Shown piece after piece: positions 2,448 to 37,183 of a DNA stretch of 64,000 nucleotides. The notes below the pieces were generated by a model, which was not told the DNA's origin, made no database searches, and worked only from the letters and a program-made list of their open reading frames with translations. The position numbers were made by a program, and so were the translations under genes. Source of the DNA: Candidatus Moraniibacteriota bacterium (lineage in GTDB: Bacteria; Patescibacteriota; Minisyncoccia; Moranbacterales; UBA1568); the NCBI GenBank assembly GCA_903859375.1, contig CAIOMK010000059.1, positions 3,438-67,437 on the forward strand, read 5' to 3'. Position 1 is the first letter of the stretch. Each line of letters begins with the position of its first letter.

Positions 2448-2465
2448 CGATCTAAGAACATACTC

Positions 2466-4238: not shown

Positions 4239-4347
4239 CCGTTTTCGGACTGCAACGAAGGCAGTTTGGTTCATCGGTCATCATTGTTCCCGGTCACAGA
4301 TCACCCGTTCCCAACAGAGTATTATCTGCCGCCTGTTTTTCTTTCCT

Positions 4348-5871: not shown

Positions 5872-5941
5872 GAATACGAGTCGAAAGTATCAAGTCCAAA
5901 GTCTATACGCCTATGACCCGTCGCGGTTAGGCTGTATAAAC

Positions 5942-5969
5942 TTTACACTTTTCGATAACCTGTTAGAAT
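5942..5969 (+). promoter_or_regulatory. Sigma70-type promoter for tRNA-Pro (TTTACA-N16-TAGAAT)
   Basis: -35 TTTACA at 5942-5947 and -10 TAGAAT at 5964-5969, about 45 nt upstream of the mature tRNA 5' end. Confidence 0.4.
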
Positions 5970-6016
5970 GGGACCTGTTATCGAAAAGGACGGTTTTACG
6001 CTCAAAAAAGGCACAT

Positions 6017-6089
6017 CGGAGTGTGGTATAGTGGTATTACGCACGATTCGGGTTCGTGTAATCCGGGTTCGATTCCCGGCACTCCGACA
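6017..6089 (+). tRNA. tRNA-Pro, anticodon CGG
   Basis: Acceptor stem CGGAGTG/CACTCCG. Anticodon stem CACGA/TCGTG with loop UUCGGGU (anticodon CGG, G37). T-arm CCGGG-TTCGATT-CCCGG. Discriminator A, no encoded CCA. Confidence 0.8.
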
Positions 6090-6249
6090 AAACAAGACTT
6101 GAAAAATGCGCAGGGTTACGGGTTTGCGAAGCATCCGGCGCATGCTGGACGATTCCCGGCACTCCGACAAAACAAGACTTGAAAAATGCGCAGGGTGACG
6201 GGTTTGCGAAGCATCCGGCGCATGCTGGACGATTCCCGGCACTCCGACA
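6071..6249 (+). repeat. Tandem direct repeat, 80-bp unit, 2.2 copies. Each copy starts with the last 19 nt of tRNA-Pro (GATTCCCGGCACTCCGACA).
   Basis: Units at 6071-6150 and 6151-6230 differ by 1 nt, with a partial third copy at 6231-6249. The first copy is the genuine tRNA 3' end. Each unit contains an internal ATGCGC...GCGCAT inverted repeat. Confidence 0.85.
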
Positions 6250-6272
6250 TATTTTGACGGTCACAAACAATT

Positions 6273-6587
6273 ATGAAAATAACCGTACACACGCTTTCAG
6301 CTGATCCCGTGACCGTATTGCGTCGCCTCGGGTATGCCTTCCAAAGGAAAGAAGGTGCCGAGATGAGTTTCATCAGACCGCTTGCGCAAGCTGGGTTTCC
6401 CCGATTCCATTGCTACGCAAAAGTGGAAGGATTCGGTCTGATCATCAGCTTTCATCTCGATCAGAAGAAAGAGACATACGGAGACACGACACGACATCAT
6501 GGAGAATATGAAGCCGAGGGCCCGCTCAAGGAAGAAGCTGACAGGCTGATCGGCCTCCTCGGTCCGAGCGCCCGCATCACAGGCTGA
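6273..6587 (+). CDS. Hypothetical 104-aa protein between the two tRNAs
   Basis: Complete ORF. No recognisable SD and no recognisable domain. Confidence 0.3.
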   Translation: MKITVHTLSADPVTVLRRLGYAFQRKEGAEMSFIRPLAQAGFPRFHCYAKVEGFGLIISFHLDQKKETYGDTTRHHGEYEAEGPLKEEADRLIGLLGPSARITG

Positions 6588-6603
6588 TGGTATCGGTTTA
6601 TCT

Positions 6604-6690
6604 GCCGAAGTGGCGAAATTGGTAGACGCACCAGGTTTAGGGCCTGGCAGGAGCAATCCTATGGGAGTTCGATTCTCCCCTTCGGCACCA
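6604..6690 (+). tRNA. tRNA-Leu, anticodon TAG, long variable arm, CCA encoded
   Basis: Acceptor GCCGAAG/CTTCGGC. Anticodon stem CCAGG/CCTGG with loop UUUAGGG. Long variable arm. T-arm GGAG-TTCGATT-CTCC. Terminal ACCA. Confidence 0.85.
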
Positions 6691-6700
6691 AAGCATGTAT

Positions 6701-6736
6701 AAAAAAACACCACGATCACTCGTGGTGTTTTTTTCT
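6701..6736. terminator. Bidirectional rho-independent terminator between tRNA-Leu and the convergent surface-protein gene
   Basis: Stem ACACCACGA/TCGTGGTGT flanked by an A-run and a T-run. Confidence 0.6.
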
Positions 6737-6751
6737 TTCTCGATAAGTCAC

Positions 6752-9550
6752 TTATTCACGCCGAACGGATTCCGATGCCGTTTCCGGTATGAGGGAGAAC
6801 AGAAATCCGACCGTAAAGAGGAGCAGTCCTCCAGAAAGGAACATACGGAATGCGAACGATACGACCGGCGGTACATACCCCGACAAGGCGGCGTAGAATT
6901 TTTTCGTTCCCGAGTCCGCCGATACCAATGGCCGCACATTCGTCACTTGAACGGATTTGCCTATGGTAATTTCAGCTGTCTGCAACGAGTTTATTCCCCA
7001 GATGTTTCTCAGGGCACTTCTTTTCTCGACCGGCTGTGTCAGCGTGGCCGACAACGCTATGTTGGTCACGTCTCCGACCGCATCCCCTTCGGGAGTGATG
7101 TAATCGATACCGATATAATCGGTTCCGTTGATGTTCCACATCGTTTCGCTCTGGGGAACATCGTTCACCACCCATTGTCGCGTCGAAATCCGTTCCGCGA
7201 AAGTCGGCACGAACCGTGCCCGCAAGTCGATCGGGTTTCCGGGATATTTCTCGAAATAGTTTTCACTGAGATCATCATGTGTCGTCCCGTTGAGATCGAC
7301 ATACTGGCCGACGACACGAGGCCAGAGAGATGACGAGTCGGCCGTTTCCAACACGATGTCCGGAGTCACGATATTGAACATGCGGGTGAGGGTGACCACG
7401 TTTCCGGTCTTGATATCAACCGCATCGAGCTTCACTTTGATGGTCGTCCCAGGCTCTCCCGTCACCGCGATGAAGACTTCCGTCCCGCCCGCACACGCGG
7501 AGTCCGACGATACAAGCGAATTGCAGGGAAGATTTTTCCCATCGACCTTCCAACTGAAATCCGACAATCCGGAGTCGGAACTCAGTTTCAATCCGATAAT
7601 CTCGTTCTTCATGACCCGGCACGAGATACGGTCAAGATTCGTCATGGCATCCTGCGCGGTCTTCGGATCTGCGACATACGTGCTACAGATCTGGCTTCCG
7701 AGAAAGACATTCGAACCCGTATCCGTATCGGCTGCGTTAGCCGTGTACGCAAGAATCTTCTTGTCAGAATTGGAAACCTTGACGACCACGTCGCTTTTCC
7801 CGGTCCGACTGCCACGTGAATTGAAATTCTCAGTAGCAGTGGAAGTGAGTCGCAGGTAGAGAGGGTCCGCCGTTGAAAACCCGCCGAGGACGTCGGCACC
7901 CATGTTGAGCGGGATCGAGATAGTTTTCAGGTCGATGCCCTTGTTGATAGGAAGGAGTCCCTTGCTCTTCAGATCGGCCGTGATATTCCTTGCACCGCTC
8001 ATGCCTATGCTATTGCTCGCTTCCACTTTCCATTCGTATGTGACTTCGGCGTCGGTTTTCCCTGAGTTCGTAATGGACGCGACGGCTGTGAGGGTATCGC
8101 CAGCCTTCTCTCCGGACCGGTCATTGGTCGGATTGTCCGGCGTGGCCGACACGTCGAGTTCTATCTTCTTCGAATTTGCCTGACCGGTATCAAGTGGGTC
8201 GATAAGGTTCGTATATATACCGTTTTTCGTTCCTTCCATGCATCTGTTAAAATCATTCCGCCCCATTCCGGTGGTAGGAAAGTTTACGGAATATCCCTTG
8301 ATCGTCGTATTGTAGCTCCCTTTATTCACGACATCACACCCGTCTCCGGAAAATGCCCACATGACCATCATCGATGAATCGGGGTGCTGCGTATTCACCA
8401 TAGATGTCCCTTCCACGATGAGACCGAGAAGATCGCCGGTCTGATACGTCCACGTGAAGGTATCGAGCCCGAGCCCGACGACATTCGCCTCGTCCTTGCT
8501 ACCGTTGTCGGCAGTATCCGCATCGGCCGGATTCGTCCCCCAGAATCTTTCTTCATCAGCAGTGAACCTCCCATCACCGGTCGTCGCGCCGGTCGCATTC
8601 GGAAAAAGATGTATACAGCTGTCTCCGCCAGGAGACGCACTTGCCGAACAAGTCATGTTGTTCTCCACCACCGGATCATACGCGTAGTTCGGTGTCGCCA
8701 ACAGGGTTATCGGGTCGATGGCATCCGGATAGATCCGACGCTGTACCGTATCCGTCAACTGAAAAGTATTCCCCGCAGCCGGGTTGACACAACGTGGCGA
8801 TTCCAAATCCGGACAAGTGACCGAACCCGAGTCACCGCAGATCGGATCCCCATTGACCTTGTACGTGCCGGTTGAGGCGATTTCCCCACCTGTGCTCATG
8901 ACTTCCTTGATACATTTTGCGGCATAGCCACCCGTACCGCATGCAAAAGACGCGGACAGGGACGATGTCGGGCCGAGTTCATAAAACACGCCGGTTGAGA
9001 CATCTTTGACATAACACCACGACTTGTCGATATTCGTCTTGTCCGATCCTCCGAAGACGTTCCGCACATCATACCCATCGTCGTCATCCGGGCCCGGCAG
9101 GAAGAGGGCCGTGTCCGCCCCATCATTCGCTATGATCTTCATAGCCTCGGTCTTCCAATCTTCCGCGCTGTCCGAGGCATCTTTCCTCTTGAGAAACCAG
9201 GTATAGAACAGTTTGTCGTTGGAATTCGAAAAGTAAAGAGGGAAGGCCTTGGCGGTAATCTTCTGACCTTCCTTCGGATCTGTCGGACTGAAGGAAAGAG
9301 TCGTCCCGGGAGCGTATTTTTTCGTATCGGAAACATTGAAACTATGACCGAAATTCTGAATGGAACTCTTGTCAATATTGAGCGCACTCAGGGTATTGTC
9401 GATCATCGTTCCCTGTATGCCCGAGCTGATACCCCCCAGAGAAATACCCAAAAGCGCGTGCGCATCCCACACAGGGATGGATTGTCCGAGAAGTATGACC
9501 GCGACAAGCAAGACGGAGAACGCTCTCTTCATGAAGGAATTTTTTTTCAT
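6752..9550 (-). CDS. Large (932 aa) secreted surface protein with N-terminal signal peptide and C-terminal TM anchor. Putative adhesin of the T4SS-like island.
   Basis: N-terminal MKKNSFMKRAFSVLLVAVILLG signal sequence. Long T/S/G/D/N-rich beta-type sequence. C-terminal hydrophobic helix GGLLLFTVGFLFSLI followed by PETASESVRRE. Confidence 0.8.
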   Translation of the reverse strand: MKKNSFMKRAFSVLLVAVILLGQSIPVWDAHALLGISLGGISSGIQGTMIDNTLSALNIDKSSIQNFGHSFNVSDTKKYAPGTTLSFSPTDPKEGQKITAKAFPLYFSNSNDKLFYTWFLKRKDASDSAEDWKTEAMKIIANDGADTALFLPGPDDDDGYDVRNVFGGSDKTNIDKSWCYVKDVSTGVFYELGPTSSLSASFACGTGGYAAKCIKEVMSTGGEIASTGTYKVNGDPICGDSGSVTCPDLESPRCVNPAAGNTFQLTDTVQRRIYPDAIDPITLLATPNYAYDPVVENNMTCSASASPGGDSCIHLFPNATGATTGDGRFTADEERFWGTNPADADTADNGSKDEANVVGLGLDTFTWTYQTGDLLGLIVEGTSMVNTQHPDSSMMVMWAFSGDGCDVVNKGSYNTTIKGYSVNFPTTGMGRNDFNRCMEGTKNGIYTNLIDPLDTGQANSKKIELDVSATPDNPTNDRSGEKAGDTLTAVASITNSGKTDAEVTYEWKVEASNSIGMSGARNITADLKSKGLLPINKGIDLKTISIPLNMGADVLGGFSTADPLYLRLTSTATENFNSRGSRTGKSDVVVKVSNSDKKILAYTANAADTDTGSNVFLGSQICSTYVADPKTAQDAMTNLDRISCRVMKNEIIGLKLSSDSGLSDFSWKVDGKNLPCNSLVSSDSACAGGTEVFIAVTGEPGTTIKVKLDAVDIKTGNVVTLTRMFNIVTPDIVLETADSSSLWPRVVGQYVDLNGTTHDDLSENYFEKYPGNPIDLRARFVPTFAERISTRQWVVNDVPQSETMWNINGTDYIGIDYITPEGDAVGDVTNIALSATLTQPVEKRSALRNIWGINSLQTAEITIGKSVQVTNVRPLVSADSGTKKFYAALSGYVPPVVSFAFRMFLSGGLLLFTVGFLFSLIPETASESVRRE

Positions 9551-20730: not shown

Positions 20731-21714
20731 GTGTATACTAAGGATATGAACGGGATCAAACCGAAACATGAATCAATCGAAACGGACCCGGTCCGTCTTT
20801 TGGCGCGGAAATTCCTCGAACACCTCGAAATCGAACTCAGCCGATCTCCACGAACCATCGACAGTTACGGCCTTTCCCTGAAGAAATTTTTCGTAACGGC
20901 TCATATACGCACACCGGAAGACATCACTCTCGAACGCATCCGTGAGTACCGTCTCCATCTCAACCGAGAGACAACGCCCACCGGCGAACCACTCCGAAAG
21001 ACGACTCAGACCTATCATGTCGTCGTATTGCGTGCATTTCTCAAATATCTCGCCAAAGAGGACATCGTCACCGTGCCTGCGGAGAAAATAGAGGTCGGCA
21101 AGACCCCGACACGTCAGGTCGATTTCCTCGAACTCGAAGAGATCGAGCGGCTTCTCTCGTCCGCATCGGGGGATTCGCTCCGCTCTCTCCGAGACCGCGC
21201 CATCCTCGAGCTCCTGTTCTCGGCCGGACTGCGGGTATCCGAACTCACCTCGCTCGATCGCGACCATGTGAATCTCAATAAGGGCGAATTCAGCATCCGA
21301 GGCAAAGGTGCCAAGCTCCGCATAGTCTTTCTTTCCGACGATGCCGGCGATGCCCTCTTCCGGTACCTCGAAAAACGACGGGATATGGACCCCGCACTCT
21401 TCGTCGCAGTCCCGATCGCAAAAAAAGGCTTCGTCAAAGAGGGGGCTCTCGGGGATATCAGACTCACACAGCGGAGCGTGCAACGGCTGGTCAAGAAATA
21501 CGCAGCCAAGGCCGGCATCGTCAAAGACGTCCATCCGCACACATTGCGCCATTCTTTTGCGACCGACCTCCTCCAAAACGGTGCTGATATCCGATCAGTC
21601 CAAGCCATGCTCGGACACGCATCCATCACGACGACCCAGATATACACCCACGTGACCAATGAACACCTCCGAGAGATCCACGAGGCCTTCCACGCGAAGA
21701 AAAAGAAGAAATAA
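20731..21714 (+). CDS. Tyrosine recombinase, XerC/XerD/phage-integrase family
   Basis: C-terminal catalytic HPHTLRHSFATDLLQNGADIRSVQAMLGHASITTTQIYTHV, and the LRDRAILELLFSAGLRVSEL box. Confidence 0.9.
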   Translation: MYTKDMNGIKPKHESIETDPVRLLARKFLEHLEIELSRSPRTIDSYGLSLKKFFVTAHIRTPEDITLERIREYRLHLNRETTPTGEPLRKTTQTYHVVVLRAFLKYLAKEDIVTVPAEKIEVGKTPTRQVDFLELEEIERLLSSASGDSLRSLRDRAILELLFSAGLRVSELTSLDRDHVNLNKGEFSIRGKGAKLRIVFLSDDAGDALFRYLEKRRDMDPALFVAVPIAKKGFVKEGALGDIRLTQRSVQRLVKKYAAKAGIVKDVHPHTLRHSFATDLLQNGADIRSVQAMLGHASITTTQIYTHVTNEHLREIHEAFHAKKKKK

Positions 21715-30438: not shown

Positions 30439-30876
30439 ATGAACTCGCTTCAACCATATTTCGTCATCCTGGTCCCGATCGCGGTCGGCGTCATAACCCA
30501 GGCCCTCAAATTCATCATCTTTACGGTGAAGCACGGCTGGAAGCCGGAATACATGCTCACACACGGTCATATGCCGTCGGCGCACACCGCGTTCGCCATC
30601 TCACTCGCCGTCAGCGTCGGATGGTACGAGGGGGTCGGTTCCGGATCGTTCGCCGTAGCCGCAGCGCTCGCCTTCATCCTCGTGGACGACGCCGCCCGTA
30701 TCCGTATGTACCTGGGTGATCAGGGCCGCTACCTCAATATGCTCGTCGAACAGCTCGACGTCGATGGGAGCAAGTTTCCCCGTCTCAAGGAACGCGTAGG
30801 GCATCGCGTCAGTGAGGTCATCGTCGGCGGACTCATCGGCCTGTTCGCCACCCTCCTCATAGTCACGACCATATAG
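30439..30876 (+). CDS. DUF212 / divergent PAP2-like membrane protein. Start at internal ATG 30439.
   Basis: HMPSAHTAF motif (DUF212 signature) and 3-4 TM helices. Confidence 0.6.
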   Translation: MNSLQPYFVILVPIAVGVITQALKFIIFTVKHGWKPEYMLTHGHMPSAHTAFAISLAVSVGWYEGVGSGSFAVAAALAFILVDDAARIRMYLGDQGRYLNMLVEQLDVDGSKFPRLKERVGHRVSEVIVGGLIGLFATLLIVTTI

Positions 30877-30898
30877 CCATTCGTACCGAAACAAAAAA

Positions 30899-30932
30899 CG
30901 GACTCCTCACAGGGTCCGTTTTTCATCGGCAA
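30899..30932. terminator. Bidirectional terminator AAAAACGGACTCCTCACAGGGTCCGTTTTT
   Basis: Perfect hairpin flanked by A5 and T5. The same sequence family occurs at 38130-38164. Confidence 0.65.
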
Positions 30933-30989
30933 TTTTCCAAGGTATGAAAATAGCGTAAGAAAGATTTCTCTCTTACGCTCAAACTGCGA

Positions 30990-31442
30990 CTAATACCGAA
31001 ACGAATCCGGAATCGGCGGAGGAGTATTCTCCTCGACGACAAAGTCGTTAAGCTCGATAATCCTGAGCCCGACCTCCTCCCATGCCCCCTCGAACCCAAG
31101 GAACTTCGCATACCGTCCATATAGGGCCGGCTCTTTCTCTCTCCTCTCGCCAGAGAAGAACCAATCGTCGATGCAAGCGGTTCCTCCCTTACGAAAGTAG
31201 GCCGCCAGCATGAGATGGTCATGCGAGTCTGCAAAAGGATCGAGACACATATGGATCTCCATCAGATTGCCCTGATTCACCACGTTTCGACCGTCCCGAT
31301 GGAGTGTGAACGAACCGGCTCTTATGGCATTGCTCGTAAGCACCGTCTCCCACGCCTCGACCACAGTACGTTCCTGCTGATAATTGAACGCGCGCTGGGC
31401 TTCTGCCGCTTCGATGAATTCCTGTAAAGGCTTGCTAATCAT
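30990..31442 (-). CDS. Hypothetical 150-aa cytoplasmic protein (cassette gene A)
   Basis: RBS AAGGGAG 8 nt before ATG. Directly preceded by the two-hairpin repeat element. Confidence 0.6.
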   Translation of the reverse strand: MISKPLQEFIEAAEAQRAFNYQQERTVVEAWETVLTSNAIRAGSFTLHRDGRNVVNQGNLMEIHMCLDPFADSHDHLMLAAYFRKGGTACIDDWFFSGERREKEPALYGRYAKFLGFEGAWEEVGLRIIELNDFVVEENTPPPIPDSFRY

Positions 31443-31571
31443 GGCTCGTCTCCCTTGTATTTAATTGTGAAATGAACTGTTTCCATCTTCAGAAGTACGT
31501 ACGAGACATACCGCTGAAGATGGAGCCGACAAGAATTATTCACGTCGGCACTCCGTAAAGGTTTTTTCGAG
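31443..31571 (-). repeat. Copy A of the conserved intergenic module: leader CAGTTCATTTCACAATTAAATACAAGGGAG, hairpin 2 (CCATCTTCAG...CTGAAGATGG), hairpin 1 (GCCGAC...GTCGGC), then AGGTTTTTTCGAGG
   Basis: Near-identical copies at 32507-32636 and 33009-33113. Divergent copy with compensatory changes at 34731-34794. Confidence 0.85.
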
Positions 31572-31663
31572 GCCATCAAATCGTCGATCTCCTTCGGGAA
31601 GATCTCCTTCTTTTCCCTCTCGAAAGGGTTCTTGCGCCAACGGGTGAAGTATTCCCGTCCGAC

Positions 31664-32506
31664 CTACTCCCACTTGACGCGGAAGGTATTGGTCTCCTGC
31701 CAACCCTGTCCCTTGTTACCTACCTCGAAGGCAAATTCAAGGAAGTCCGGGCCGCGATCGGTGATCGCCGTGCTCAGCACCCGCATCCCCACGGAGTAAA
31801 ATTTCCCTCCGGGGTGGCGGAGACCGGTCCAGGACGATCCTGTGGAACAGAACCCTTTGCCTTTTACCCAGACAAAGAGTTTGTACTGATCCACGATAGC
31901 GTCGTAATCCCGGTCGTAATGAACGGCAAGCAGCGCGACGACGTCACTCTCCACGACGGTCTCGGAGTCCTTCGACCACCGATTTCCGAGGCTTTTCTCG
32001 ACATACGAACGGAACGCCTTGATGTCATCAACGACATCACTGAGCAATTTCATTCGCGCCTGAGTCGCCTCATAATCGCGGACGGAGAATACCGACAGGG
32101 TTTCGAGACCCTTCTCCGAGCTGAAGCGGTACGCCTTCACGTTGCCCCCGCCAGTGCGAAGACCGAACGTGACCGCAACCTCCGTCTCCTCGAGAATCGA
32201 GGGTGAACTGAGGCAAAGGTCCCAGTTGTCGATCTCGTGGCTGTACGCTCCGCGGTACTGTCGCATCGGACCCTCGTGTACCCGAGTCCACACATCACCG
32301 TCGCGTTTCTCAACGCAAAGAGCGTGCGAGTATGCCATGCCACCGCCGGACTTCGACACATTCTCACCGCCAATGACGATTCGGAACTGCTCTCCTTCCG
32401 GAACACGCGTTTCCGTATCGAGGTAGCGCTGTACGAGCGCTGGAACCATTGAAAGGTTCTCGCGCGTGGCAAGCGTAGCGGCGGTCTGTAGGCTGACTTC
32501 TTTCAT
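31664..32506 (-). CDS. Hypothetical 280-aa protein (cassette gene B). Start at internal Met MKEVSL; the ORF-track N-terminus METVHFTIQ is repeat-element sequence.
   Basis: RBS CAGGAG before ATG at 32506. Stop immediately followed by the conserved GGACGGG-N9-CCCGTTGGC hairpin (31632-31663). Confidence 0.6.
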   Translation of the reverse strand: MKEVSLQTAATLATRENLSMVPALVQRYLDTETRVPEGEQFRIVIGGENVSKSGGGMAYSHALCVEKRDGDVWTRVHEGPMRQYRGAYSHEIDNWDLCLSSPSILEETEVAVTFGLRTGGGNVKAYRFSSEKGLETLSVFSVRDYEATQARMKLLSDVVDDIKAFRSYVEKSLGNRWSKDSETVVESDVVALLAVHYDRDYDAIVDQYKLFVWVKGKGFCSTGSSWTGLRHPGGKFYSVGMRVLSTAITDRGPDFLEFAFEVGNKGQGWQETNTFRVKWE

Positions 32507-32636
32507 TTTTGTTTCTCCTGTTTGAATTGTGAAATGAACTGTTTCCATCTTCAGGAGTACGTACGAGACATACCGCTGAAGAGAGGGCCGACGGAATTAT
32601 TCACGTCGGCCACCAATCAGGTTTTTTCGAGATCCC
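32507..32636 (-). repeat. Copy B of the two-hairpin intergenic module
   Basis: See copy A. Fills the entire 130-nt spacer between the gene C stop and the gene B start. Confidence 0.85.
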
Positions 32637-33008
32637 TCAACTCGGCCCCTGGTTATTGAACGGGCCCGGAAAATTCCGCCACTCCCGCCTCGGCCAGACC
32701 ATCCAAAGGAAGATCCCTATCATTCCTATGGAGCCTTTACACCAGATCTCCAGCCAGAGAGGCGCCCCCTCTAGATAGGTCGGGTTGGCGATGACAAGAA
32801 TGCCGGCCCAGCACACGAGGCTGGTCATCGCGAACCAGAGGAACCCCATCATCCCCCAGTACCGCAAGAGGACGACGTCCTCACCATTCGCAATGCGCGC
32901 CCGGACAAGCTGGCGCGTTCTAACCGCCACTTTTCCAAACATCATCGCAGCCATAACCATCATGGTTGCTAGAACAGCAACGTCCTGACTAACTGTATTC
33001 ATATTCAT
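32637..33008 (-). CDS. Small (124 aa) membrane protein with 3 TM (cassette gene C). Start at MNMNTVSQ; the upstream in-frame MNNSCRLHLQRYV...METVHFTIQ is repeat-derived.
   Basis: RBS CAGGAG. Hydrophobic segments VAVLATMMVMAAMMF, GMMGFLWFAMTSLVCWAGILVI and IGMIGIFLWMVW. Confidence 0.5.
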   Translation of the reverse strand: MNMNTVSQDVAVLATMMVMAAMMFGKVAVRTRQLVRARIANGEDVVLLRYWGMMGFLWFAMTSLVCWAGILVIANPTYLEGAPLWLEIWCKGSIGMIGIFLWMVWPRREWRNFPGPFNNQGPS

Positions 33009-33113
33009 GTGTATATCTCCTGTTTGAATTGTGAAATGAACTGTTTCCATCTTCAGAAGTACGTCCAAGACATACCGCTGAAGATGGAGCCGACAAGAAT
33101 TATTCAAGTCGGC
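33009..33113 (-). repeat. Copy C of the two-hairpin intergenic module
   Basis: See copy A. The hairpin-2 loop differs slightly (GTCCAAG vs GTACGAG). Confidence 0.85.
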
Positions 33114-33818
33114 TCAAATTTTAACCAATAACAGGGACCGCATAGTTCACGCTACGGTCTACGATGTGCCAGGAGTCGCAACGTATAGTTGCATCTCCAG
33201 ACATATCGCCTTGCTCTGTTATCGGTGTTGGTATCCGGCCGGCATATGAAGAAATGTCGTTGACACTCCTTCATAAGATCCTTAGCCGAGATGCCCTGTG
33301 ATGGGAGAACTCAATCTCCGTATTCGTAGCGGGGCTTGCTCGGAAGACGTCTAGCGTGGACGCTCCACTGTTCGTCGAGACATGAACAAAAATTCATATC
33401 TCAAACGACCACCTCCTACCTACGAACCATCACCTCCTCTAGCAACGAGGCCTGTTCTCTTTGCTTCATTTCCCCTTTCGACTCAACAGAGAGAGAAAGG
33501 GTCTTCTGTTCCTGGCGGGTGAAGCGTCCCCGCCATGGGTATCCGTCTTTATGAGTCGCGCCATTGCGACCGACGGTTTGCCCATAGAATCCATAATGGA
33601 TTCTCCTCTGACTATCAAATTATCGCGCCATGCCGATGAGACAGGTGCAAATGAGTGAGTCCTCATCGCGGCTCAAGAGTACGCGTGTACCATGAGCATG
33701 ATAGCCTTCTGATTGCTACTGTTAACGGCGCACCAGGTTTCCCTGTTCAGAACGCGAATTTTTCAATTCACAGCCTGAATGAGGAGGAGAAGATACTGCG
33801 TTGATATATCTTCTCCGA

Positions 33819-34022
33819 TTACGGGGAGCACTGCCGTATATGTCTGTTATGCTCCTTCAACATCCGCGCCCACTCCTTCATGGACGGGGCCGTACGAAGA
33901 CGGGCTTCGAACATCCGCTCCGCATGAGACGCACGATGAGGACTCCTCTTCGGCGCCTTCTTGCCCCCGTTGGCCAAAATGGCAATCTGAAGCAATGTCG
34001 TCGGTCTTGCTATGTGTTTCAT
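33819..34022 (-). CDS. Hypothetical 67-aa basic protein
   Basis: ATG preceded by AAACAGGAGAAAA, the same leader/RBS context as cassette genes B and D. Conserved stop-adjacent hairpin module lies upstream at 34106-34135. Confidence 0.3.
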   Translation of the reverse strand: MKHIARPTTLLQIAILANGGKKAPKRSPHRASHAERMFEARLRTAPSMKEWARMLKEHNRHIRQCSP

Positions 34023-34171
34023 TTTTCTCCTGTTTATTTTTTGGAAAATTTGTGTGTTCGATCCGTTCGGTCGGATCTCCTTCTGTTTCCTCTTCCGGGG
34101 ATTCTGTTGCCAACGGGAGAAGTGGTCCCGTCCGAGTCTCGCTCATCGCCCTCCGCGGACGGAACAGGAGA

Positions 34172-34527
34172 TTACTTCTCCCGTTCTTTCTGGAGTCGCC
34201 GATAGTCAGCTACCGCCTCTTTGACGGCATCACTGAGTTTCGCGGCTTCCCCATGCCCATGGACTCCCCTGTCTCCGATATAGTCGACACGATATGGAAT
34301 TCTCCCGATATGGTCAGTTACCCTGACTTTCTGGAGGTTCATCCCAAGAGTGTCGACTCCCGCGAAATTCGCAGGATTATTCATCGGAAAGAAGTTGACT
34401 GCCTCATCGGTCCAGCGCAGGACCGAATCAACATCTACTTTCTTCTGCCACAGGACTGTGGCTCCGACGGACAAAATCGCGGTGACGATGACGGAAAGAA
34501 CGATACCTTTTGTATTTTCGATATACA
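34172..34527 (-). CDS. Hypothetical 118-aa N-terminally membrane-anchored protein (cassette gene D). Start at internal Met MYIENTKG.
   Basis: Strong RBS AACAGGAGATAAAC-ATG. TM GIVLSVIVTAILSVGATVLW. The leader shares AGTTCATTACACAAATTAAAACAGGAG with copies A-C. Confidence 0.55.
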
Positions 34528-34730
34528 TGTTTATCTCCTGTTTTAATTTGTGTAATGAACTCACTCTGTAACGGGATAGTATACCCTCTTTTGACCCTGC
34601 TGTCCATAGTATCGATACGTTTTGTAAATATTTATACAACATATTGACTTATTTTAGCCAATATTTGCTGTCGTAAAATACTTTACAAATATATGATATT
34701 CTTGGGTCATATCAGATATATTTCTCAATC

Positions 34731-34794
34731 CCATCTTCAAAGGCACGTAAAGTACCTGTCCTTGAAGATGGAGCCGATAGAATTTTCATATCGG
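34731..34794 (-). repeat. Copy E of the two-hairpin element (CCATCTTCAAAGG...CCTTGAAGATGG plus GCCGAT...ATCGGC). It is separated from gene D by a ~180-nt AT-rich insertion.
   Basis: Stem positions changed in a pairing-preserving way relative to copies A-C (CAG/CTG to CAAAGG/CCTTG; GCCGAC/GTCGGC to GCCGAT/ATCGGC). Confidence 0.75.
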
Positions 34795-34910
34795 CGTGTC
34801 TTGAGGTTTGTCCGAGCCCTCAACTCGTCGATCCGCTTCGGCCGGACCTCCTTCGTTTACTCCTTCCGGAGCTTCTGTTGCCAACGGGTGAAGTAGGCCC
34901 GTCCGGAGTA

Positions 34911-35312
34911 TCACCACGATGAGATTTCTCGAAGTTGCCCAGTATCATAGAGGACGGCTTGACCCCGAAAACGGGTCCAGCAATCGACTTCAACGGTGAC
35001 AATGCCTTCGTGATCGACCATAAACAGGCCGATTTCACAGTCGCACGTACCGTCGTCGTCATCGTCGTCCTCAACAATAATAGAGCACCAATCAAGCTCA
35101 TCCTCTCCAACCCTGCTTACGAGAAACGCGATGATTTTCATCTCATCCGGATCTCGTACGAGAAAGGCGCAAAGCCCTTCGCGGTCCTCTGAAAAAACCA
35201 GAGAACTTGCATGGAGTGTGGCGCCATCCGGCATCGTCTCTCCCATCACAAGCATCACAAGCTTAGAGAGAAATAATGCGCGTTCTTCCCCGACAAGAGC
35301 TTCCATTGCCAT
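34911..35312 (-). CDS. Hypothetical 133-aa acidic protein with a poly-Asp tract (cassette gene E)
   Basis: Strong RBS AGGAGGAAAC-ATG. Stop followed directly by the GGACGGG-N9-CCCGTTGGCAACAGAA hairpin module (34873-34908). Confidence 0.55.
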   Translation of the reverse strand: MAMEALVGEERALFLSKLVMLVMGETMPDGATLHASSLVFSEDREGLCAFLVRDPDEMKIIAFLVSRVGEDELDWCSIIVEDDDDDDGTCDCEIGLFMVDHEGIVTVEVDCWTRFRGQAVLYDTGQLREISSW

Positions 35313-35457
35313 GTTTCCTCCTATTTGAGGGTTGAAAAGAAAAATATTTCTTTGTATCCCGCTCCCCCGCCTGCCTCAACGGGGTCCCTTCGGGAAGGGG
35401 AGCTGTCGAGTCTTCGAGACTCTTGATCCGCGAATGCTGGGTGAGGGGTGGGAGACA

Positions 35458-35628
35458 TCAGGATCCGGCAAGCCGTTTCCTGAGCTCGGCTTTGGACCGT
35501 TTCCGGTCGTAGCCCTTTCCTCCACTCTTCGTAGAATGGGCTCCGCCCTTGTGCCGAAGAAGTTCGACAACCTCCATCGGGATGCGCCACTTCGACGGCT
35601 TCCTGACCTTTTTTATAGTCTTCGCCAT
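35458..35628 (-). CDS. Small (56 aa) highly basic protein MAKTIKKVRKPSKWRIPMEVVELLRHKGGAHSTKSGGKGYDRKRSKAELRKRLAGS
   Basis: AAGGAGG 7 nt upstream of ATG. Hairpins plus T-run terminator downstream. The longer ORF 35458..35748 is rejected. Confidence 0.5.
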   Translation of the reverse strand: MAKTIKKVRKPSKWRIPMEVVELLRHKGGAHSTKSGGKGYDRKRSKAELRKRLAGS

Positions 35629-36071
35629 CTCTACCTCCTTTTTTGTTCTTCGATTGTAAAAGTTCATCACCGGACATCGGCATTCCTTCGGGAACCATGT
35701 GCCAGAAGGCTTCATGGGGGGTATGAATATTTTGAATATTACCCCCATCCGCCAAGGCGCATGGCTCTACCAAGTGACCGACCAATCCTGCCATTCATAT
35801 CAATTCCGTCTGACAGGAGGCGTATAACCCAGTTATCCGAGAGAATACCTATCTTTTGAGGTGCCGGATTCATCAAGCTTTTCAACTTGACTCCACAGTA
35901 TATCGTATGATTCAAATCTTGTCAAGTGTTACTGACTAAATATGTGAGTATATAGTAAATAATGCTTTTGTGAAGCAATATTTTGTATATAATTATGTTC
36001 ATTATTGTTGTCATACAATGGACAATACTACGCCTAAAGAAGCCTTCGAACTGTATTCTGTTTATGACGCT

Positions 36072-36100
36072 TGACAGAACTGTTTTCCGGTGCTACTATA
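36072..36100 (+). promoter_or_regulatory. Consensus sigma70 promoter TTGACA-N17-TACTAT
   Basis: -35 at 36072-36077 and -10 at 36095-36100 within an AT-rich 35.9-36.1 kb region. Confidence 0.55.
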
Positions 36101-36107
36101 CGGGGTA

Positions 36108-36351
36108 ACGTAATTTCAGTTTTTTCACAATTAACCAAGGGAGGAAGTCATGGGGGACTATTGATACGCTCCAAGAAGATGAGCGGCACACAGAAGTGCG
36201 CTCATCTCCAAGAAGGGACCACATCAATTAATCTTCATGAAAGAACCCTCAATCTCCAATAACATCAAAAAAACGACCATGTCTGACTAGTAGAAAAAAT
36301 CATTCGACTGTCTCGTGAAAAACTCACGAATTGATGGTCTCAAAGAAGCGG
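36108..36351 (+). ncRNA. Candidate ~300-nt promoter-to-terminator transcript without a credible ORF (only a 4-codon MGDY and a 17-codon ORF). sRNA or leader-peptide RNA candidate.
   Basis: Begins with leader CAGTTTTTTCACAATTAACCAAGGGAGGAAGTC-ATG, which resembles the cassette-gene leaders. Internal hairpin GATGAGCGGCACACAGAAGTGCGCTCATC. Ends at a strong bidirectional terminator. Confidence 0.3.
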
Positions 36352-36418: not shown

Positions 36419-37183
36419 CTATTCCTGATATTTTTCCGCTCCCTCCCATGCCAGATCAAGGATTGCCCGCACAGAATCCGCGATTTCCTTATCTTCAATG
36501 ATGATACCGAGTAATCGGTCGCCAAGCGAAGCTATCCGAACCTTATCATCGAGAATAGCGATGTCGCTTTTTATCGGAAACTTATCAAATGGTACTTTTC
36601 TTCGCTCGCCATCAACAGTACTCTCCAAAACACCGTTTTTATAGGTATATATCACCCTCGTCTTGATTTTTTTGTCGAGCCTTTTCGTTTTTGCCCGAGC
36701 CCGTTCCTCTTTCATGAAAACATTATCAACCGCATCAACCGAATACGCCATAGGAACGACGCTTCCGGATGCGACCTTTATCGTCTCTTCGTTCATGGCC
36801 GATATACCTTCCTTTCCCTCGAAATACTTCACGACTGGTCGACCGGACTGCTTGTTGTTTATCGATTGAAGTTGCGGGATAAGCTTTTTCAGCTCTTCCG
36901 ATTTCCGCTCCATTTCCCGCTTCTGTTCATCGAGTATTTCGACGAGCCGATCCGGATCGGTCGCGATAAAAAATTGCTTCTTTCCCTGATGGAAACTGCT
37001 GATAAGCCCTTTGGCCGTGAGTCCCTCGATGATAAAATAGGTCGTCGCGCGGTTCACGCCGGACCTGCTCGAGATTCCCTGTACTGCCGACTGCCCCAAC
37101 TCCAAAGAGGCCAGATAGACCTTCGCTTCCTTTTCATTGAGTCCGATTTCCACCAGTTCCCGTTCGAACATACCGGTTTGCAT
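36419..37183 (-). CDS. TrmB-family transcriptional regulator (254 aa)
   Basis: N-terminal HTH LNEKEAKVYLASLELGQSAVQGISSRSGVNRATTYFIIEGL, TrmB-type. Confidence 0.7.
   Translation of the reverse strand: MQTGMFERELVEIGLNEKEAKVYLASLELGQSAVQGISSRSGVNRATTYFIIEGLTAKGLISSFHQGKKQFFIATDPDRLVEILDEQKREMERKSEELKKLIPQLQSINNKQSGRPVVKYFEGKEGISAMNEETIKVASGSVVPMAYSVDAVDNVFMKEERARAKTKRLDKKIKTRVIYTYKNGVLESTVDGERRKVPFDKFPIKSDIAILDDKVRIASLGDRLLGIIIEDKEIADSVRAILDLAWEGAEKYQE

What the first reader, a model, noticed from the sequence alone, without database searches (positions are those of the whole stretch)
30990..35628. Cassette-like array of small unrelated ORFs sharing mosaic intergenic modules
Six to seven short genes of 56-280 aa all lie on the minus strand, and none has recognisable similarity to the others.

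Their spacers are assembled from shared modules:
- A stop-adjacent hairpin (C)GGACGGG-N9-CCCGTTGGC(G/A)ACAGAA directly after the stops of genes B (31632-31663) and E (34873-34908), and 40 nt after gene D (34106-34135).
- A CTTCGG-type hairpin segment (gatctccttcgggaagatc / cgatccgcttcggccgg).
- AGGTTTTTTCGAG.
- The two-hairpin element.
- The common leader/RBS.

This architecture of diverse ORFs in one orientation, each followed or preceded by a conserved structured site, resembles integron or other site-specific cassette arrays, or a hypervariable accessory locus. No integron-type integrase is adjacent. The nearest tyrosine recombinase is 10 kb away.

The array is interrupted by a ~1-kb stretch without confident genes (33.1-33.8 kb).
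Basis: partly seen in the sequence, partly recalled or inferred. Interest (0 to 1): 0.7.

Follow-up and report, generated by a model that had tools for sequence, protein, structure and literature searches.

The report
RNA-punctuated, shuffled small-gene array
A stretch of a Moranbacteria (candidate-phyla-radiation) genome carries seven unrelated small genes separated by conserved folded RNA modules that, in sister genomes, are swapped for hammerhead ribozymes; the gene set is reshuffled between species at the module edges, so it behaves like a cassette array but works through RNA, not through an integron.

Summary
Seven unrelated minus-strand genes (56-280 aa, no database hit) are separated by two repeat families: a stop-adjacent three-hairpin module (3 copies plus 1 degenerate) and a two-hairpin module plus common leader/RBS (4 copies). 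Chance expectation is 0.

Both modules are sense-strand RNA structures, supported by covariation, GNRA tetraloops and a large excess of G.U over A.C.

They occur only in a narrow Moranbacteria clade, always in arrays headed by a TrmB regulator gene, a ~190-nt structured leader and the small basic protein G56.

In sister arrays, type III hammerhead ribozymes occupy the slot that the long hairpin Hb holds here.

Gene content and order differ between related species. Homology breaks fall at module edges. Within the species the neighbourhood is conserved.

No integron integrase, attC core or terminator features are present.

Best reading: intercistronic RNA processing and insulation modules of a polycistronic, hypervariable accessory array. 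Their repetition also supplies homology for cassette shuffling.

The "gene-less" 33.1-33.8 kb stretch is a recurrent, very conserved non-coding RNA. It, the leader and both modules match no Rfam family.

Interest is moderately high. Cleavage, stabilisation and recombination are inferred, not shown.

The parts
36419..37183 (-). TrmB-family regulator gene, directly upstream of the array and on the same strand
   Evidence: Pfam TrmB, E = 4e-12. A TrmB gene sits in the same position in L082, L099, L219, L221 and L222.
35897..35925 (-). Sigma-70-like promoter P1 (TTGACA-17-TATACT)
   Evidence: 11 of 12 consensus matches. The block is conserved in 6 arrays.
35655..35890 (-). Structured leader RNA of about 190-230 nt, upstream of G56
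   Evidence: Alignment of 6 arrays; 61 predicted pairs, 18 of them with compensatory changes. No Rfam hit.
35458..35628 (-). G56, a small basic protein and the first gene of every array
   Evidence: 11 homologue clusters, all from the Moranbacteria clade. It is the only cassette gene shared by all arrays.
35380..35455 (-). C-rich intergenic module (CUCCCACCCCUCA - hairpin - GCUCCCCU..GGGGAGC)
   Evidence: Recurs in L082, in L219 (three copies) and in L007 (two copies).
34911..35312 (-). Cassette gene E133 (acidic, unknown function)
   Evidence: ORF. No family hit. Found only in L219, at 92%.
34822..34909 (-). Three-hairpin module m3 (H1-H2-H3), 5 nt after the E133 stop
   Evidence: Covariance-model hit, 96.9 bits. 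Structure and covariation.
34726..34796 (-). Two-hairpin module m2 (Ha + Hb), here without the common leader
   Evidence: nhmmer E = 1.7e-13. Included in alignment A4.
34578..34606 (-). Promoter-like site P2, upstream of D118
   Evidence: TGGACA-17-TATACT, 10 of 12 matches.
34172..34528 (-). Cassette gene D118 (N-terminal membrane helix)
   Evidence: ORF. Homologues in L003 (59%) and L099 (69%) only.
34052..34138 (-). m3 copy, 40 nt after the D118 stop
   Evidence: Covariance-model hit, 95.2 bits.
33819..34022 (-). Cassette gene D2_67
   Evidence: ORF. Homologues in L082 (94%) and L219 (57%).
33698..33725 (-). Promoter-like site P3, inside the ultra-conserved non-coding stretch
   Evidence: TTAACA-16-TATCAT, 10 of 12 matches.
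33452..33540 (-). Degenerate m3 copy: H1 carries compensatory changes, H2 is extended, H3 is lost
   Evidence: Covariance-model hit, 20.1 bits, E = 0.02. Row shown.
33124..33437 (-). 'bigR', a recurrent conserved non-coding RNA that fills a cassette slot
   Evidence: nhmmer finds 6 full and 2 partial copies in 6 arrays. About 98% identical to L082, where UvrD is only 76.5%. Folding z-score -4.07. 17 of 69 pairs compensatory.
33019..33114 (-). m2 plus common leader/RBS, upstream of C123
   Evidence: nhmmer E = 9e-27.
32637..33008 (-). Cassette gene C123 (hydrophobic; looks like a multi-pass membrane protein by eye, no prediction run)
   Evidence: ORF. No homologue in any related array.
32517..32636 (-). 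A-run spacer plus m2 plus leader/RBS, upstream of B280
31664..32506 (-). Cassette gene B280 (all-beta, unknown function)
31578..31665 (-). m3 copy, 2 nt after the B280 stop
   Evidence: Covariance-model hit, 92.3 bits.
31551..31577 (-). Small hairpin plus A-run spacer (CUCGAAAAAACCU)
   Evidence: Read from the sequence.
31455..31550 (-). m2 plus common leader/RBS, upstream of A150
   Evidence: nhmmer E = 1.4e-25. In the fold of the whole spacer, Hb forms 18 base pairs (11 + 7) interrupted by one C/U mismatch.
30990..31442 (-). Cassette gene A150, last gene of the array
   Evidence: ORF. Homologues in L082 (46%) and L003 (55%).
30952..30979 (-). Intrinsic terminator that closes the array
   Evidence: The only minus-strand terminator-like site with a 12-bp stem plus T-run.

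Best explanation
What it is. The block is a polycistronic, hypervariable accessory array of a Candidatus Moranbacteria genome. Its fixed head is a TrmB regulator gene, a promoter, a structured leader RNA and the small basic protein G56. Behind the head come interchangeable slots. Most hold one unrelated small gene; one holds a ~330-nt non-coding RNA.

How the slots are separated. Modular RNA structures on the transcript punctuate the slots.
- m3 (H1-H2-H3) sits 1-11 nt after most stop codons; window copy D lies 40 nt downstream. H1 is invariant, and an invariant Shine-Dalgarno-like GAAGGAG follows it.
- Next come a small hairpin and an A-rich single-stranded spacer.
- Next comes Ha, followed by the long hairpin Hb (18 pairs with one mismatch).
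- Last come an unstructured AU-rich leader and a strong ribosome-binding site.

Proposed mechanism (inferred).
- The spacer is cut between cistrons. In this genome a host RNase would do it: RNase III in Hb and/or RNase Y/E at the A-run. In sister arrays the hammerhead that replaces Hb would do it.
- After cutting, m3 to Ha forms a 3' protective cap for the upstream message.
- Hb (or the ribozyme body with its 5'-OH), plus ribosomes held at SD-like sites, protects the downstream message and gives every inserted ORF the same translation start context.
- Because the same 80-220-nt modules flank every slot, ordinary homologous recombination between them can delete, duplicate, swap or import cassettes. 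This would explain the shuffling between species without any dedicated recombinase.
For: Shown:
- The repeats are real and non-random.
- They are RNA structures on the coding strand.
  - m3: 98% of cells paired, against 91% in shuffles and 36-57% when partners are slid. Seven pairs carry double changes. H2 loops are GNRA in 10 of 13 copies.
  - m2: 95% paired, 13 of 23 pairs compensatory, 55 compensatory cells against 16 in shuffles.
  - G.U pairs far outnumber A.C.
  - The sense strand of the B-A spacer folds at -76.3 kcal/mol (z = -3.7). The antisense strand folds at -66.9 kcal/mol (z = -2.2).
- Every copy has the orientation of the genes and a fixed position. m3 follows a stop codon. m2 ends about 35-40 nt before a start codon.
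- No copy lies elsewhere in the 64-kb window. About 75 Moranbacteria loci outside the array clade carry none, apart from one marginal hit at E = 0.17.
- Type III hammerheads lie in the sense orientation in the same intergenic slots of sister arrays:
  - L082: two by Rfam at 46.8-46.9 bits (E about 1e-7), plus one by pattern.
  - L221: two.
  - L222: four, three of them at the gathering score of 48.5 bits.
  - In L221 and L222 the order is m3, spacer, Ha-like hairpin, hammerhead. The ribozyme therefore replaces Hb.
- Only three promoter-like sites and one terminator lie on the array strand.
- Gene content and order vary between species, and homology breaks fall at module edges.
- Some module copies within one genome are 96% identical although their genes differ.

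From the literature:
- Tandem hammerheads flank individual genes of non-constant identity and cut about 2-kb polycistronic RNAs in vitro (PMC3088659).
- Unrelated ribozyme classes share such gene neighbourhoods, which suggests that the exact motif is unimportant (PMC6765202).
- A non-initiating SD sequence can stabilise mRNA against RNase J1 (PMC4113751).
- Conserved regulatory cassettes mediate modular shuffling of ORFans in T4-type phages (PMC2839356).
Against: - No transcript data exist. Cleavage, stabilisation and the RNase involved are all inferred.
- Hb forms only 18 pairs (11 + 7 around one C/U mismatch), which is short for a classical RNase III site.
- The perfect invariance of the H1 stem and loop is more than a generic 3' cap needs. 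It points to a specific partner that the model does not name.
- m3 and a hammerhead coexist in one spacer in L221 and L222, so m3 is not simply the local substitute for a ribozyme.
- Recombination between modules is deduced from breakpoints, not observed.
- Within the species the array is stable.
- The function of every cassette protein is unknown, so the purpose of the array is unknown.
Confidence: 0.58

Rival explanations
1. New functional RNA classes rather than passive processing signals. m3 has a sequence-invariant H1 with an ACUUC loop, an invariant GAAGGAG and dispensable peripheral stems. It would be a self-cleaving ribozyme, or the docking site of a specific protein or RNA (for example G56). 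bigR and the leader would be a catalytic or ligand-sensing RNA that controls the array.
For: - The conservation pattern is typical of a functional core. H1 and the linkers show zero changes in 13-20 copies, while the H2 and H3 stems turn over completely and H2 or H3 can be lost.
- A CUUC:GAAG loop-linker pairing is possible in every copy.
- The locus type, hammerhead-associated gene arrays, is where new self-cleaving classes have been sought (PMC6765202). I recall that twister-sister, pistol and hatchet were found in such loci, but I did not read that here.
- bigR is 98% conserved where proteins are about 80%.
- The leader has 18 compensatory pairs.
- None of these RNAs is in Rfam.
Against: - The invariant positions cannot be tested by covariation.
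- All copies come from one narrow clade, so part of the invariance may be shared ancestry.
- I recall that most RNA motifs first found near hammerhead and twister genes (the RAGATH set) did not self-cleave.
- Nothing computational can show catalysis or ligand binding.
Confidence: 0.2
2. Selfish miniature repeats (MITE, REP or BOX-like) spread into intergenic spaces of this clade and have no role for the genes. The shuffling is a by-product.
For: - The elements are multi-copy, modular and restricted to one lineage.
- Modules occur in partial combinations.
- Near-identical copies exist within one genome, for example the copies upstream of A150 and C123 at 96%.
- They also appear at a second locus in a relative, L083.
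Against: - All roughly 50 copies are in the sense orientation and at fixed distances from stop or start codons.
- None is outside TrmB/G56-type arrays in about 1.5 Mb of related sequence.
- No terminal inverted repeats or target duplications are seen.
- Compensatory evolution keeps the RNA folds.
- Interchange with hammerheads points to a selected RNA-level role.
Confidence: 0.12
3. An integron-like or other site-specific cassette system. The hairpins would be DNA recombination sites (attC-like) used by a recombinase encoded elsewhere.
For: - The ORFs are unrelated, in one orientation and mostly promoterless, each followed closely by a conserved structured site.
- Presence or absence of single gene-plus-module units differs between species.
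Against: - There is no integron integrase. The nearest tyrosine recombinase is XerC/D-like and part of the conserved backbone.
- m3 is three separate hairpins, not one long imperfect palindrome, and lacks GTTRRRY/RYYYAAC cores.
- Folding signals lie on the coding strand, with GNRA loops and G.U pairs.
- The Hb slot is filled by a ribozyme in relatives.
- The arrays sit in at least 3 chromosomal contexts, with TrmB rather than an integrase at their head.
Confidence: 0.04
4. Ordinary terminators and UTRs of independently transcribed genes. Their similarity would be left over from local duplication.
For: - Three promoter-like sites lie inside the block.
- Hairpins directly after stop codons are usual for terminators.
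Against: - No module hairpin is followed by a U-tract. The scan finds one strong terminator on the array strand, at the very end, plus a weak 6-bp match at 35168-35183 inside the E133 coding sequence.
- Four of the seven gene junctions have no promoter-like site.
- The flanked genes are unrelated, so duplication of units cannot explain the shared spacers.
- The modules are kept across species around different genes.
Confidence: 0.05

Closest known systems
Hammerhead (and twister) ribozyme-associated gene arrays in bacteria and prophages (Perreault et al. 2011, PMC3088659; review PMC6765202). I also recall the RAGATH RNA motifs found in such neighbourhoods; that point is from memory, not read here.
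   Same: - Several structured RNAs in the sense orientation flank single small genes of non-constant, mostly unknown identity within one transcription unit.
- Sister arrays of this locus carry 2-4 genuine type III hammerheads in the same slots.
- Further non-ribozyme RNA motifs accompany them.
   Different: - The window itself has no hammerhead or any other Rfam ribozyme.
- Its slots are filled by undescribed motifs (m3, Ha-Hb, bigR).
- The host is a CPR bacterium.
- The arrays have a fixed head of TrmB, leader and G56.
- No prophage genes or integrase are adjacent.
PeSL 'mobile regulatory cassettes' of T4-type phage hyperplastic regions (Arbiol et al. 2010, PMC2839356; PMC4122927)
   Same: - Short conserved regulatory motifs flank ORFans in hypervariable regions.
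- Insertions, deletions and replacements between close relatives have their junctions in those motifs.
- Recombination between repeats is the proposed shuffling mechanism.
   Different: - PeSLs are a promoter plus a terminator stem-loop and act on transcription.
- Here most junctions lack a promoter-like site, the hairpins lack U-tracts, and one module is exchangeable with a ribozyme. The action is therefore post-transcriptional.
- The setting is a bacterial chromosome, not a phage.
RNase III processing sites between the early genes of phage T7 (textbook knowledge, not checked here)
   Same: Sequence-related long hairpins sit between cistrons of one long transcript. Cutting there leaves a hairpin at the 3' end of the upstream message.
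   Different: - Cleavage of Hb is untested.
- Hb is shorter, at 18 pairs with one mismatch.
- There is extra module complexity (m3, Ha).
Integron gene-cassette arrays (attC sites plus IntI)
   Same: - Co-oriented, mostly promoterless, unrelated ORFs.
- Each is followed within a few nucleotides by a conserved folded site.
- Cassette content differs between relatives.
   Different: - No IntI, attI or attC core sequences are present.
- The structures are selected on the RNA (coding) strand.
- No evidence exists for site-specific excision.
STAB-SD mRNA stabiliser of Bacillus thuringiensis cry3A (PMC4113751)
   Same: An invariant strong SD-like sequence (GAAGGAG) lies in an untranslated region with no start codon at initiation distance.
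   Different: - Here it lies in an intercistronic module between two hairpins, about 130 nt upstream of the next start.
- Ribosome binding and any stabilising effect are untested.

Membership tests
Integron | Integron-type tyrosine integrase (IntI) adjacent to the array | tested here: not met
   There is no recombinase between 29.5 and 38 kb. The recombinase at 20731-21714 scores 249.5 bits against XerD. Against TIGR02249 (integron integrase) it scores 123.6 bits, below the cut-off of 265.
Integron | attC site after each ORF: one imperfect palindrome with RYYYAAC ... GTTRRRY cores | tested here: not met
   m3 is three independent hairpins. Its GTTGGCA and GGCAAC strings do not fit the cores (read from the sequence). 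Hb ends in TCCATC...GATGGA.
Integron | Co-oriented, mostly promoterless cassettes whose content varies between relatives | tested here: met
Hammerhead ribozyme, type III (Rfam RF00008) | Core CUGANGA ... GAAA ... UH, enclosed by three stems | tested here: not met
   In the window there is no hit at the gathering score, and none at E <= 5 within 30500-36300. The pattern scan found nothing. The feature is met in sister arrays L082, L221 and L222.
Any curated RNA family (Rfam 15) | Covariance-model match to m3, m2, bigR or the leader | tested here: not met
   Only two tRNAs are found in the window. In 30500-36300 there are only chance-level microRNA, snoRNA and sRNA hits.
Intrinsic terminator | G+C-rich hairpin immediately followed by a U-tract | tested here: not met
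   No module is reported on the array strand. The scan reports only 30952-30979 after the last gene, plus a weak 6-bp match at 35168-35183 inside the E133 coding sequence.
MITE / REP / BOX-type dispersed repeats | Dispersal over many unrelated intergenic sites in either orientation; terminal inverted repeats or target duplications | tested here: not met
   All copies are in the sense orientation and inside the arrays. None lies elsewhere in the window. About 75 other loci carry none, apart from one marginal hit at E = 0.17. Complete genomes were not available, so genome-wide absence is not proven.
PeSL-type regulatory cassettes | Conserved promoter plus terminator stem-loop flanking ORFans | tested here: not met
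   Promoter-like sites occur at only 3 places, and the hairpins have no U-tract.
PeSL-type regulatory cassettes | Junctions of insertions, deletions and replacements between relatives lie in the repeated motif | tested here: met
   BLAST blocks against L082, L003 and L083 start at the first base of m3, between Ha and Hb, or in the leader about 20 nt before the next start codon.
RNase III processing site | About two turns of double-stranded RNA, cleaved by RNase III | tested here: inconclusive
   Hb forms 18 pairs (11 + 7 around one C/U mismatch) and is directly abutted by the 6-8-bp Ha. Cleavage is not testable with these tools.
STAB-SD | SD-like sequence in a UTR that binds 30S subunits without initiating and blocks 5' exonuclease | not testable with these tools
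   GAAG(G/A)A is invariant or nearly so, and no start codon lies 4-13 nt downstream. Binding and stabilisation need experiments.

The most novel reading that the evidence does not exclude
The TrmB-leader-G56 arrays would be a CPR-specific 'RNA-punctuated cassette platform'. In this reading, m3 and/or the ~330-nt bigR are new classes of catalytic or specifically recognised RNAs that work alongside hammerheads. The structured leader would be a new riboswitch-like sensor that turns the whole array on. Together they would be functionally an integron analogue that needs no integrase, because the RNA modules double as recombination homology.
Probability: 0.18. Interest if true: 0.85.

Novelty: new variant of a known kind. 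Interest (0 to 1): 0.66.

Why it matters
- The biological purpose of hammerheads and other ribozymes that flank small unknown genes in bacteria is still unsettled (PMC6765202).
- This clade offers a natural comparison. In homologous arrays the same slot is filled either by a hammerhead or by a plain long hairpin. This argues that what is selected is a cut or an insulated boundary between cistrons, not the ribozyme as such, and it makes that idea directly testable.
- The locus also supplies four structured RNA families absent from Rfam: m3, Ha-Hb, bigR and the leader. Such loci are a logical place to look for new ribozyme classes (PMC6765202). I recall that twister-sister, pistol and hatchet came from such loci, but I did not check that here.
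- It shows a route to cassette-like gene shuffling in reduced CPR genomes without a dedicated recombinase.
- If the modules act as context-independent expression insulators, they could be useful parts for synthetic operons.

Tried and rejected
Protein searches
- Pfam, PHROGs, PADLOC and NCBIfam scans of all cassette proteins found nothing. A PDB sequence search of B280 and of the G56 family alignment also found nothing useful.
- The G56 model had pLDDT 63, so no fold search was run. My impression that G56 looks like an Arc/CopG ribbon-helix-helix protein has no tool support.

Collection scans
- The metagenome scan with GGACGGGNNNNCTTCNCCCGT was too unspecific.
- None of the 9 viral-contig matches is real. 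There is therefore no evidence for a phage origin.

Ideas about the modules that did not hold
- Coding potential. The reading frames through m3 and m2 differ between copies because of indels. The 42-codon ORF in the gap loses its stop codon in L082.
- Hb as a degenerate hammerhead. Its CUGAAGA string fits CUGANGA, but there is no stem II and no UH site, and the string is absent from the L083-type and L003a copies.
- A kissing interaction between the H1 loop and the Ha loop, as suggested by the single-sequence fold. By my reading of the sequences it is only 3-5 bp and is not kept in other copies.
- Extending the CUUC:GAAG pairing. I saw no covariation at the flanking positions when reading the alignment.
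- bigR as a group I or II intron, RNase P or tmRNA. Rfam gives no hit, and the resemblances I saw by eye were superficial.

Full report
**Source and setting**

The window is part of a 70.8-kb metagenomic contig (ENA ERZ27313579). Its UvrD helicase is 70-84% identical to proteins of MAGs labelled Candidatus Moranbacteria / Moraniibacteriota, in the Patescibacteria or CPR. The block lies between a conserved DUF212-UvrD backbone (27.1-30.9 kb) and two TrmB-family regulator genes (36.4-38.1 kb).

**Checking the observation**

Seven minus-strand ORFs are present:
- G56, 35458-35628
- E133, 34911-35312
- D118, 34172-34528
- D2_67, 33819-34022
- C123, 32637-33008
- B280, 31664-32506
- A150, 30990-31442

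The same genes were called independently on the source contig. No two of them fall in one BLASTP family. None hits Pfam, PHROGs, PADLOC or NCBIfam, and B280 hits no PDB sequence.

- The stop-adjacent hairpin motif matches at 31629-31661, 34102-34134 and 34873-34905.
- The core of the two-hairpin element matches at 31483-31520, 32545-32582 and 33047-33084.
- Each motif has 0 matches expected in dinucleotide shuffles.
- The repeat finder and a profile search add a diverged two-hairpin copy at 34726-34796 and a degenerate copy of the stop-adjacent module at 33452-33540.

**Anatomy of a spacer, read in the transcript sense**

The complete unit is best seen between B280 and A150 (31443-31663). It contains, in order:
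- **m3**, which is hairpin H1 (CGGACGGG-NNNACUUCN-CCCGUYG), linker GNCAACAGAA, hairpin H2, linker AAAYGAAGGAGAUC, and hairpin H3 (GAUCCG-NCCGAA(G)-CGGAUC).
- A small hairpin followed by an A-run (CUCGAAAAAACCU).
- **m2**, which is hairpin Ha (GCCGAC-loop-GUCGGC) directly abutted by the long hairpin Hb.
- An AU-rich leader of about 35 nt, ending in AGGAG and the start codon.

'AGGTTTTTTCGAG' is the A-run. Partial units occur:
- m3 alone after D118.
- A-run plus m2 before B280.
- m2 alone before C123.

**The modules are RNA structures on the coding strand**

I collected 13 m3 copies and 26 m2 copies from the window and four related loci.

For m3:
- 98.1% of cells form standard pairs. Column shuffles give 91.4% (0 of 500 reach the observed value), and sliding the partners gives 36-57%.
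- All four H2 pairs and three of six H3 pairs carry double (compensatory) changes.
- H2 is capped by a GNRA tetraloop in 10 of 13 copies.

For m2:
- 95.1% of cells are paired.
- 13 of 23 pairs carry compensatory changes.
- There are 55 compensatory cells, against 16 in shuffles (0 of 500).

Other strand evidence:
- G.U pairs are abundant, for example 24 of 26 copies at one Hb position. These would be A.C mismatches on the other strand. The reverse case is rare.
- The sense strand of the B-A spacer folds at -76.3 kcal/mol (z = -3.7). The antisense strand folds at -66.9 kcal/mol (z = -2.2).

Conservation is uneven. The H1 stem and its ACUUC loop, and GAAG(G/A)A, never or hardly ever vary, whereas H2 and H3 change their whole stem sequence. 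Diverged copies have lost H2 (L099 795-866, L003 3850-3919) or H3 (the copies in the gene-less stretch). Both kinds keep the H1 loop and GAAG. A 4-bp loop-linker pairing, CUUC:GAAG, is possible in all copies but cannot be tested because nothing varies.

The modules are not coding. Frames differ between copies because of indels.

**Distribution**

A covariance model of m3 and iterated profile searches find copies only in this array and in homologous arrays of a narrow clade: L003, L010, L082, L083, L099 and L219-L223. No copy lies elsewhere in the 64-kb window. About 75 other Moranbacteria UvrD loci carry none, apart from one marginal hit at E = 0.17. None of the viral-contig matches to the H1 pattern is real. 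All copies have the orientation of the genes. m3 starts 1-11 nt after a stop codon in most cases (40 nt after D118). m2 ends about 35-40 nt before a start codon.

**What the arrays look like elsewhere**

Loci found through homologues of B280 and G56 share one fixed head. The head is a TrmB gene on the same strand, then about 800 nt containing a near-consensus promoter and a conserved leader, then G56. Behind it comes a run of small genes without any family assignment.

This head occurs in at least three chromosomal contexts:
- Mur ligase ... DUF212-UvrD, as here.
- Next to polA.
- Next to radical-SAM/SAVED and AbiEii genes.

A presence/absence table shows that only TrmB and G56 are common to the arrays:

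| Gene | Where homologues were found |
|---|---|
| E133 | L219 only |
| D118 | L003, L099 |
| D2_67 | L082, L219 |
| B280 | L082, L003, L083 |
| A150 | L082, L003 |
| C123 | nowhere |

The order also differs: B lies before A here and in L003, but A lies before B in L082.

Other species with the same DUF212-UvrD backbone have none of the cassette genes at this place (L007 carries only a 51%-identical G56-like ORF). One of them, L006, has a 21-repeat CRISPR array whose repeat ends in ...TCTACTGTTGTAGAT.

At strain level the block is stable. 24 contigs encoding the identical B280 share the same neighbours.

Homology blocks between the window and L082, L003 or L083 begin at the first base of m3, break between Ha and Hb, or end in the leader about 20 nt before the next start codon.

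**Hammerheads in the same slots**

Rfam detects type III hammerhead ribozymes, all in the sense orientation, in the spacers of sister arrays:
- L082: 7813-7867 and 8374-8428 (46.8-46.9 bits, E about 1e-7), plus a third found by pattern at about 16014.
- L221: 8461-8515 and 9193-9247.
- L222: 9036-9090, 10245-10299, 11045-11099 and 11397-11451. Three of these are at the gathering score of 48.5 bits.

In L221 and L222 the spacer reads m3, small hairpin and A-run, an Ha-like hairpin (same UUGAAWAAUUYC-type loop on a fully covaried stem), then the hammerhead, then the leader. The ribozyme therefore stands exactly where Hb stands in the window. An A150 homologue is preceded by a hammerhead in L082 and by m2 here.

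The window has no hammerhead or any other Rfam ribozyme.

Published work shows that tandem hammerheads flank single genes of varying identity, and that they cut about 2-kb polycistronic RNAs in vitro (PMC3088659). [quoted passage not shown]

**Transcription signals**

On the array strand the scan finds three good promoter-like sites and one convincing terminator:
- 35925-35897 (11 of 12 matches).
- 34606-34578.
- 33725-33698.
- Terminator at 30979-30952, after A150.

No module hairpin has a U-tract. The only other minus-strand terminator-like match is a weak 6-bp one at 35168-35183, inside the E133 coding sequence. The block therefore looks like two or three overlapping polycistronic units, not seven separate genes.

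**Most likely mechanism**

Shown: the spacers are conserved, strand-specific RNA folds at fixed positions; they are exchangeable with a self-cleaving ribozyme; and they lie at the junctions of cassette rearrangements.

Inferred:
- The transcript is cut in each spacer. In relatives the hammerhead would cut it. Here a host enzyme would cut it, at the A-run (RNase Y/E type) and/or in Hb (RNase III type). An RNase Y gene is present in related genomes.
- m3 to Ha then caps the 3' end of the upstream message.
- Hb, or the ribozyme body with its 5'-OH, shields the downstream message. Ribosomes bound at SD-like sequences may add to this, in the manner of STAB-SD (PMC4113751).
- The common unstructured leader and strong RBS give any inserted ORF the same start context.
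- Because H1 begins within a few nucleotides of most stop codons, I expect that a terminating ribosome would reach and unfold it. This rests on my recollection of ribosome footprint size and is not a tool result. If so, the fate of the spacer may be coupled to translation of the upstream ORF.
- The repeated modules (80-220 nt, 70-96% identical within a genome) are sufficient substrates for homologous recombination. This would explain the shuffling, as proposed for the PeSL motifs of T4-type phages (PMC2839356).

**Why not an integron**

- The nearest tyrosine recombinase (20731-21714) is XerC/D-like. It belongs to the conserved backbone and scores far below the integron-integrase cut-off.
- The modules lack attC architecture and core sites.
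- The folding signals are on the RNA strand.
- A ribozyme can take the place of one module.

The cassette-like behaviour is real; the mechanism implied by the integron analogy is not supported.

**The gene-less stretch**

The region 33.1-33.8 kb is not a gap.
- From about 33300 to 33760 it is about 98% identical to L082. In the same pair UvrD is 76.5% and B280 80.6% identical at the DNA level.
- Its short ORFs are not maintained.
- It contains a promoter-like site, the degenerate m3 copy, and a core of about 330 nt ('bigR', 33124-33437).
- The core recurs in six arrays, plus two shorter variants. It is typically preceded by m3 (plus Ha and a different hairpin, or a hammerhead) and followed by Ha-Hb and the leader of the next gene. 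It therefore occupies a slot as a gene would.
- It folds better than shuffles (z = -4.1), and 17 of 69 predicted pairs are compensatory in six sequences. The helices differed between two runs, so I do not commit to a structure.
- There is no Rfam match at E <= 5.

**The leader**

The 5' region of G56 (about 35655-35890) aligns across six arrays. The alignment shows long invariant single-stranded blocks and a multi-stem fold closed by GGYAUUCC/GGAAUGYC. Of 61 predicted pairs, 18 are compensatory. It has the size and conservation pattern of a riboswitch or protein-binding leader. Nothing more can be said from sequence.

**Verdict**

- Observation: confirmed.
- Interpretation: partly supported. 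It is a hypervariable, cassette-like accessory array, but it is not integron-like.
- Best explanation: RNA-level intercistronic processing and insulation modules that also serve as recombination homology. This is a variant of the hammerhead-associated gene arrays known from other bacteria and prophages.
- What is new: a CPR host, a fixed TrmB-leader-G56 head, and four RNA motif families absent from Rfam.
- What is missing: all functional steps (cutting, stabilisation, recombination) await experiment, and the purpose of the cassette proteins is unknown.

Noticed in passing
window 33124-33437 (wider conserved stretch 33085-33770), minus strand; also L082 6171-6504, L219 13094-13405, L222 9275-9610, L003 4034-4360, L099 652-376: A recurrent non-coding RNA of about 330 nt ('bigR') fills a cassette slot. 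It is about 98% identical between the window and L082, where housekeeping genes are 76-80% identical. It folds better than shuffles (z = -4.1) and shows some covariation. It has no Rfam match. A promoter-like site lies at 33725-33698.
   Followed up: partly
window 35655-35890, minus strand (5' region of G56); L082 4190-4425, L099 3245-3010, L219 9765-10000, L221 7470-7715, L222 8120-8365: A conserved multi-stem leader RNA downstream of a near-consensus promoter. Of 61 predicted pairs, 18 are compensatory in 6 sequences. The invariant single-stranded block GCACYUCAAAAGAUAG is present in all. It is riboswitch-like in size and pattern and absent from Rfam.
   Followed up: partly
L082 7813-7867, 8374-8428, ~16014; L221 8461-8515, 9193-9247; L222 9036-9090, 10245-10299, 11045-11099, 11397-11451: Type III hammerhead ribozymes lie in the sense orientation in the intergenic slots of sister arrays. 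Each is preceded by a hairpin a few nucleotides before the cleavage site.
   Followed up: yes
L006 5423-7325: At the same DUF212-UvrD locus, one related species has a CRISPR array of at least 21 repeats with a 62-nt period. The repeat ends in ...AAGATTTCTACTGTTGTAGAT, which I recall as Cas12a-like. The locus looks like a variable-island hot spot.
   Followed up: no
window 35380-35455, minus strand; L082 ~5496, L219 ~10258, ~11281 and ~14690, L007 ~842 and ~18481: A further recurrent intergenic module: CUCCCACCCCUCA, a variable hairpin, then GCUCCCCU-loop-GGGGAGC. Unlike m3 and m2 it also occurs in a genome that lacks them (L007).
   Followed up: no
L216 / L217 (contigs carrying a 447-aa B280 homologue), 1600-8800: A more distant CPR array also starts with a TrmB gene and has its own families of long hairpins before each small gene (CUCCCUUUCAGAG...CUGAAAGGGA). 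The m3 linker string GGCAACAGAA appears after two stop codons there. The architecture may therefore be older and wider than the sequence families.
   Followed up: no
L222 3018-4310 and 12642-13418: One G56-headed array is flanked by radical-SAM plus SAVED-domain genes and by an AbiEii gene. This is a defence-island-like neighbourhood.
   Followed up: no
L083 774-3783: In a relative, m3 and m2 also separate a PALP (pyridoxal-phosphate enzyme) gene from genes without a family hit. One of those, a 216-aa gene, is grouped with the L082 216-aa gene that follows a short-chain-dehydrogenase gene in L082's copy of this block. The modules are therefore not confined to ORFans.
   Followed up: no
window 6017-6088 and 6604-6690, plus strand: tRNA-Pro(CGG) and tRNA-Leu(TAG). 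These are ordinary and are the only Rfam hits in the window.
   Followed up: yes
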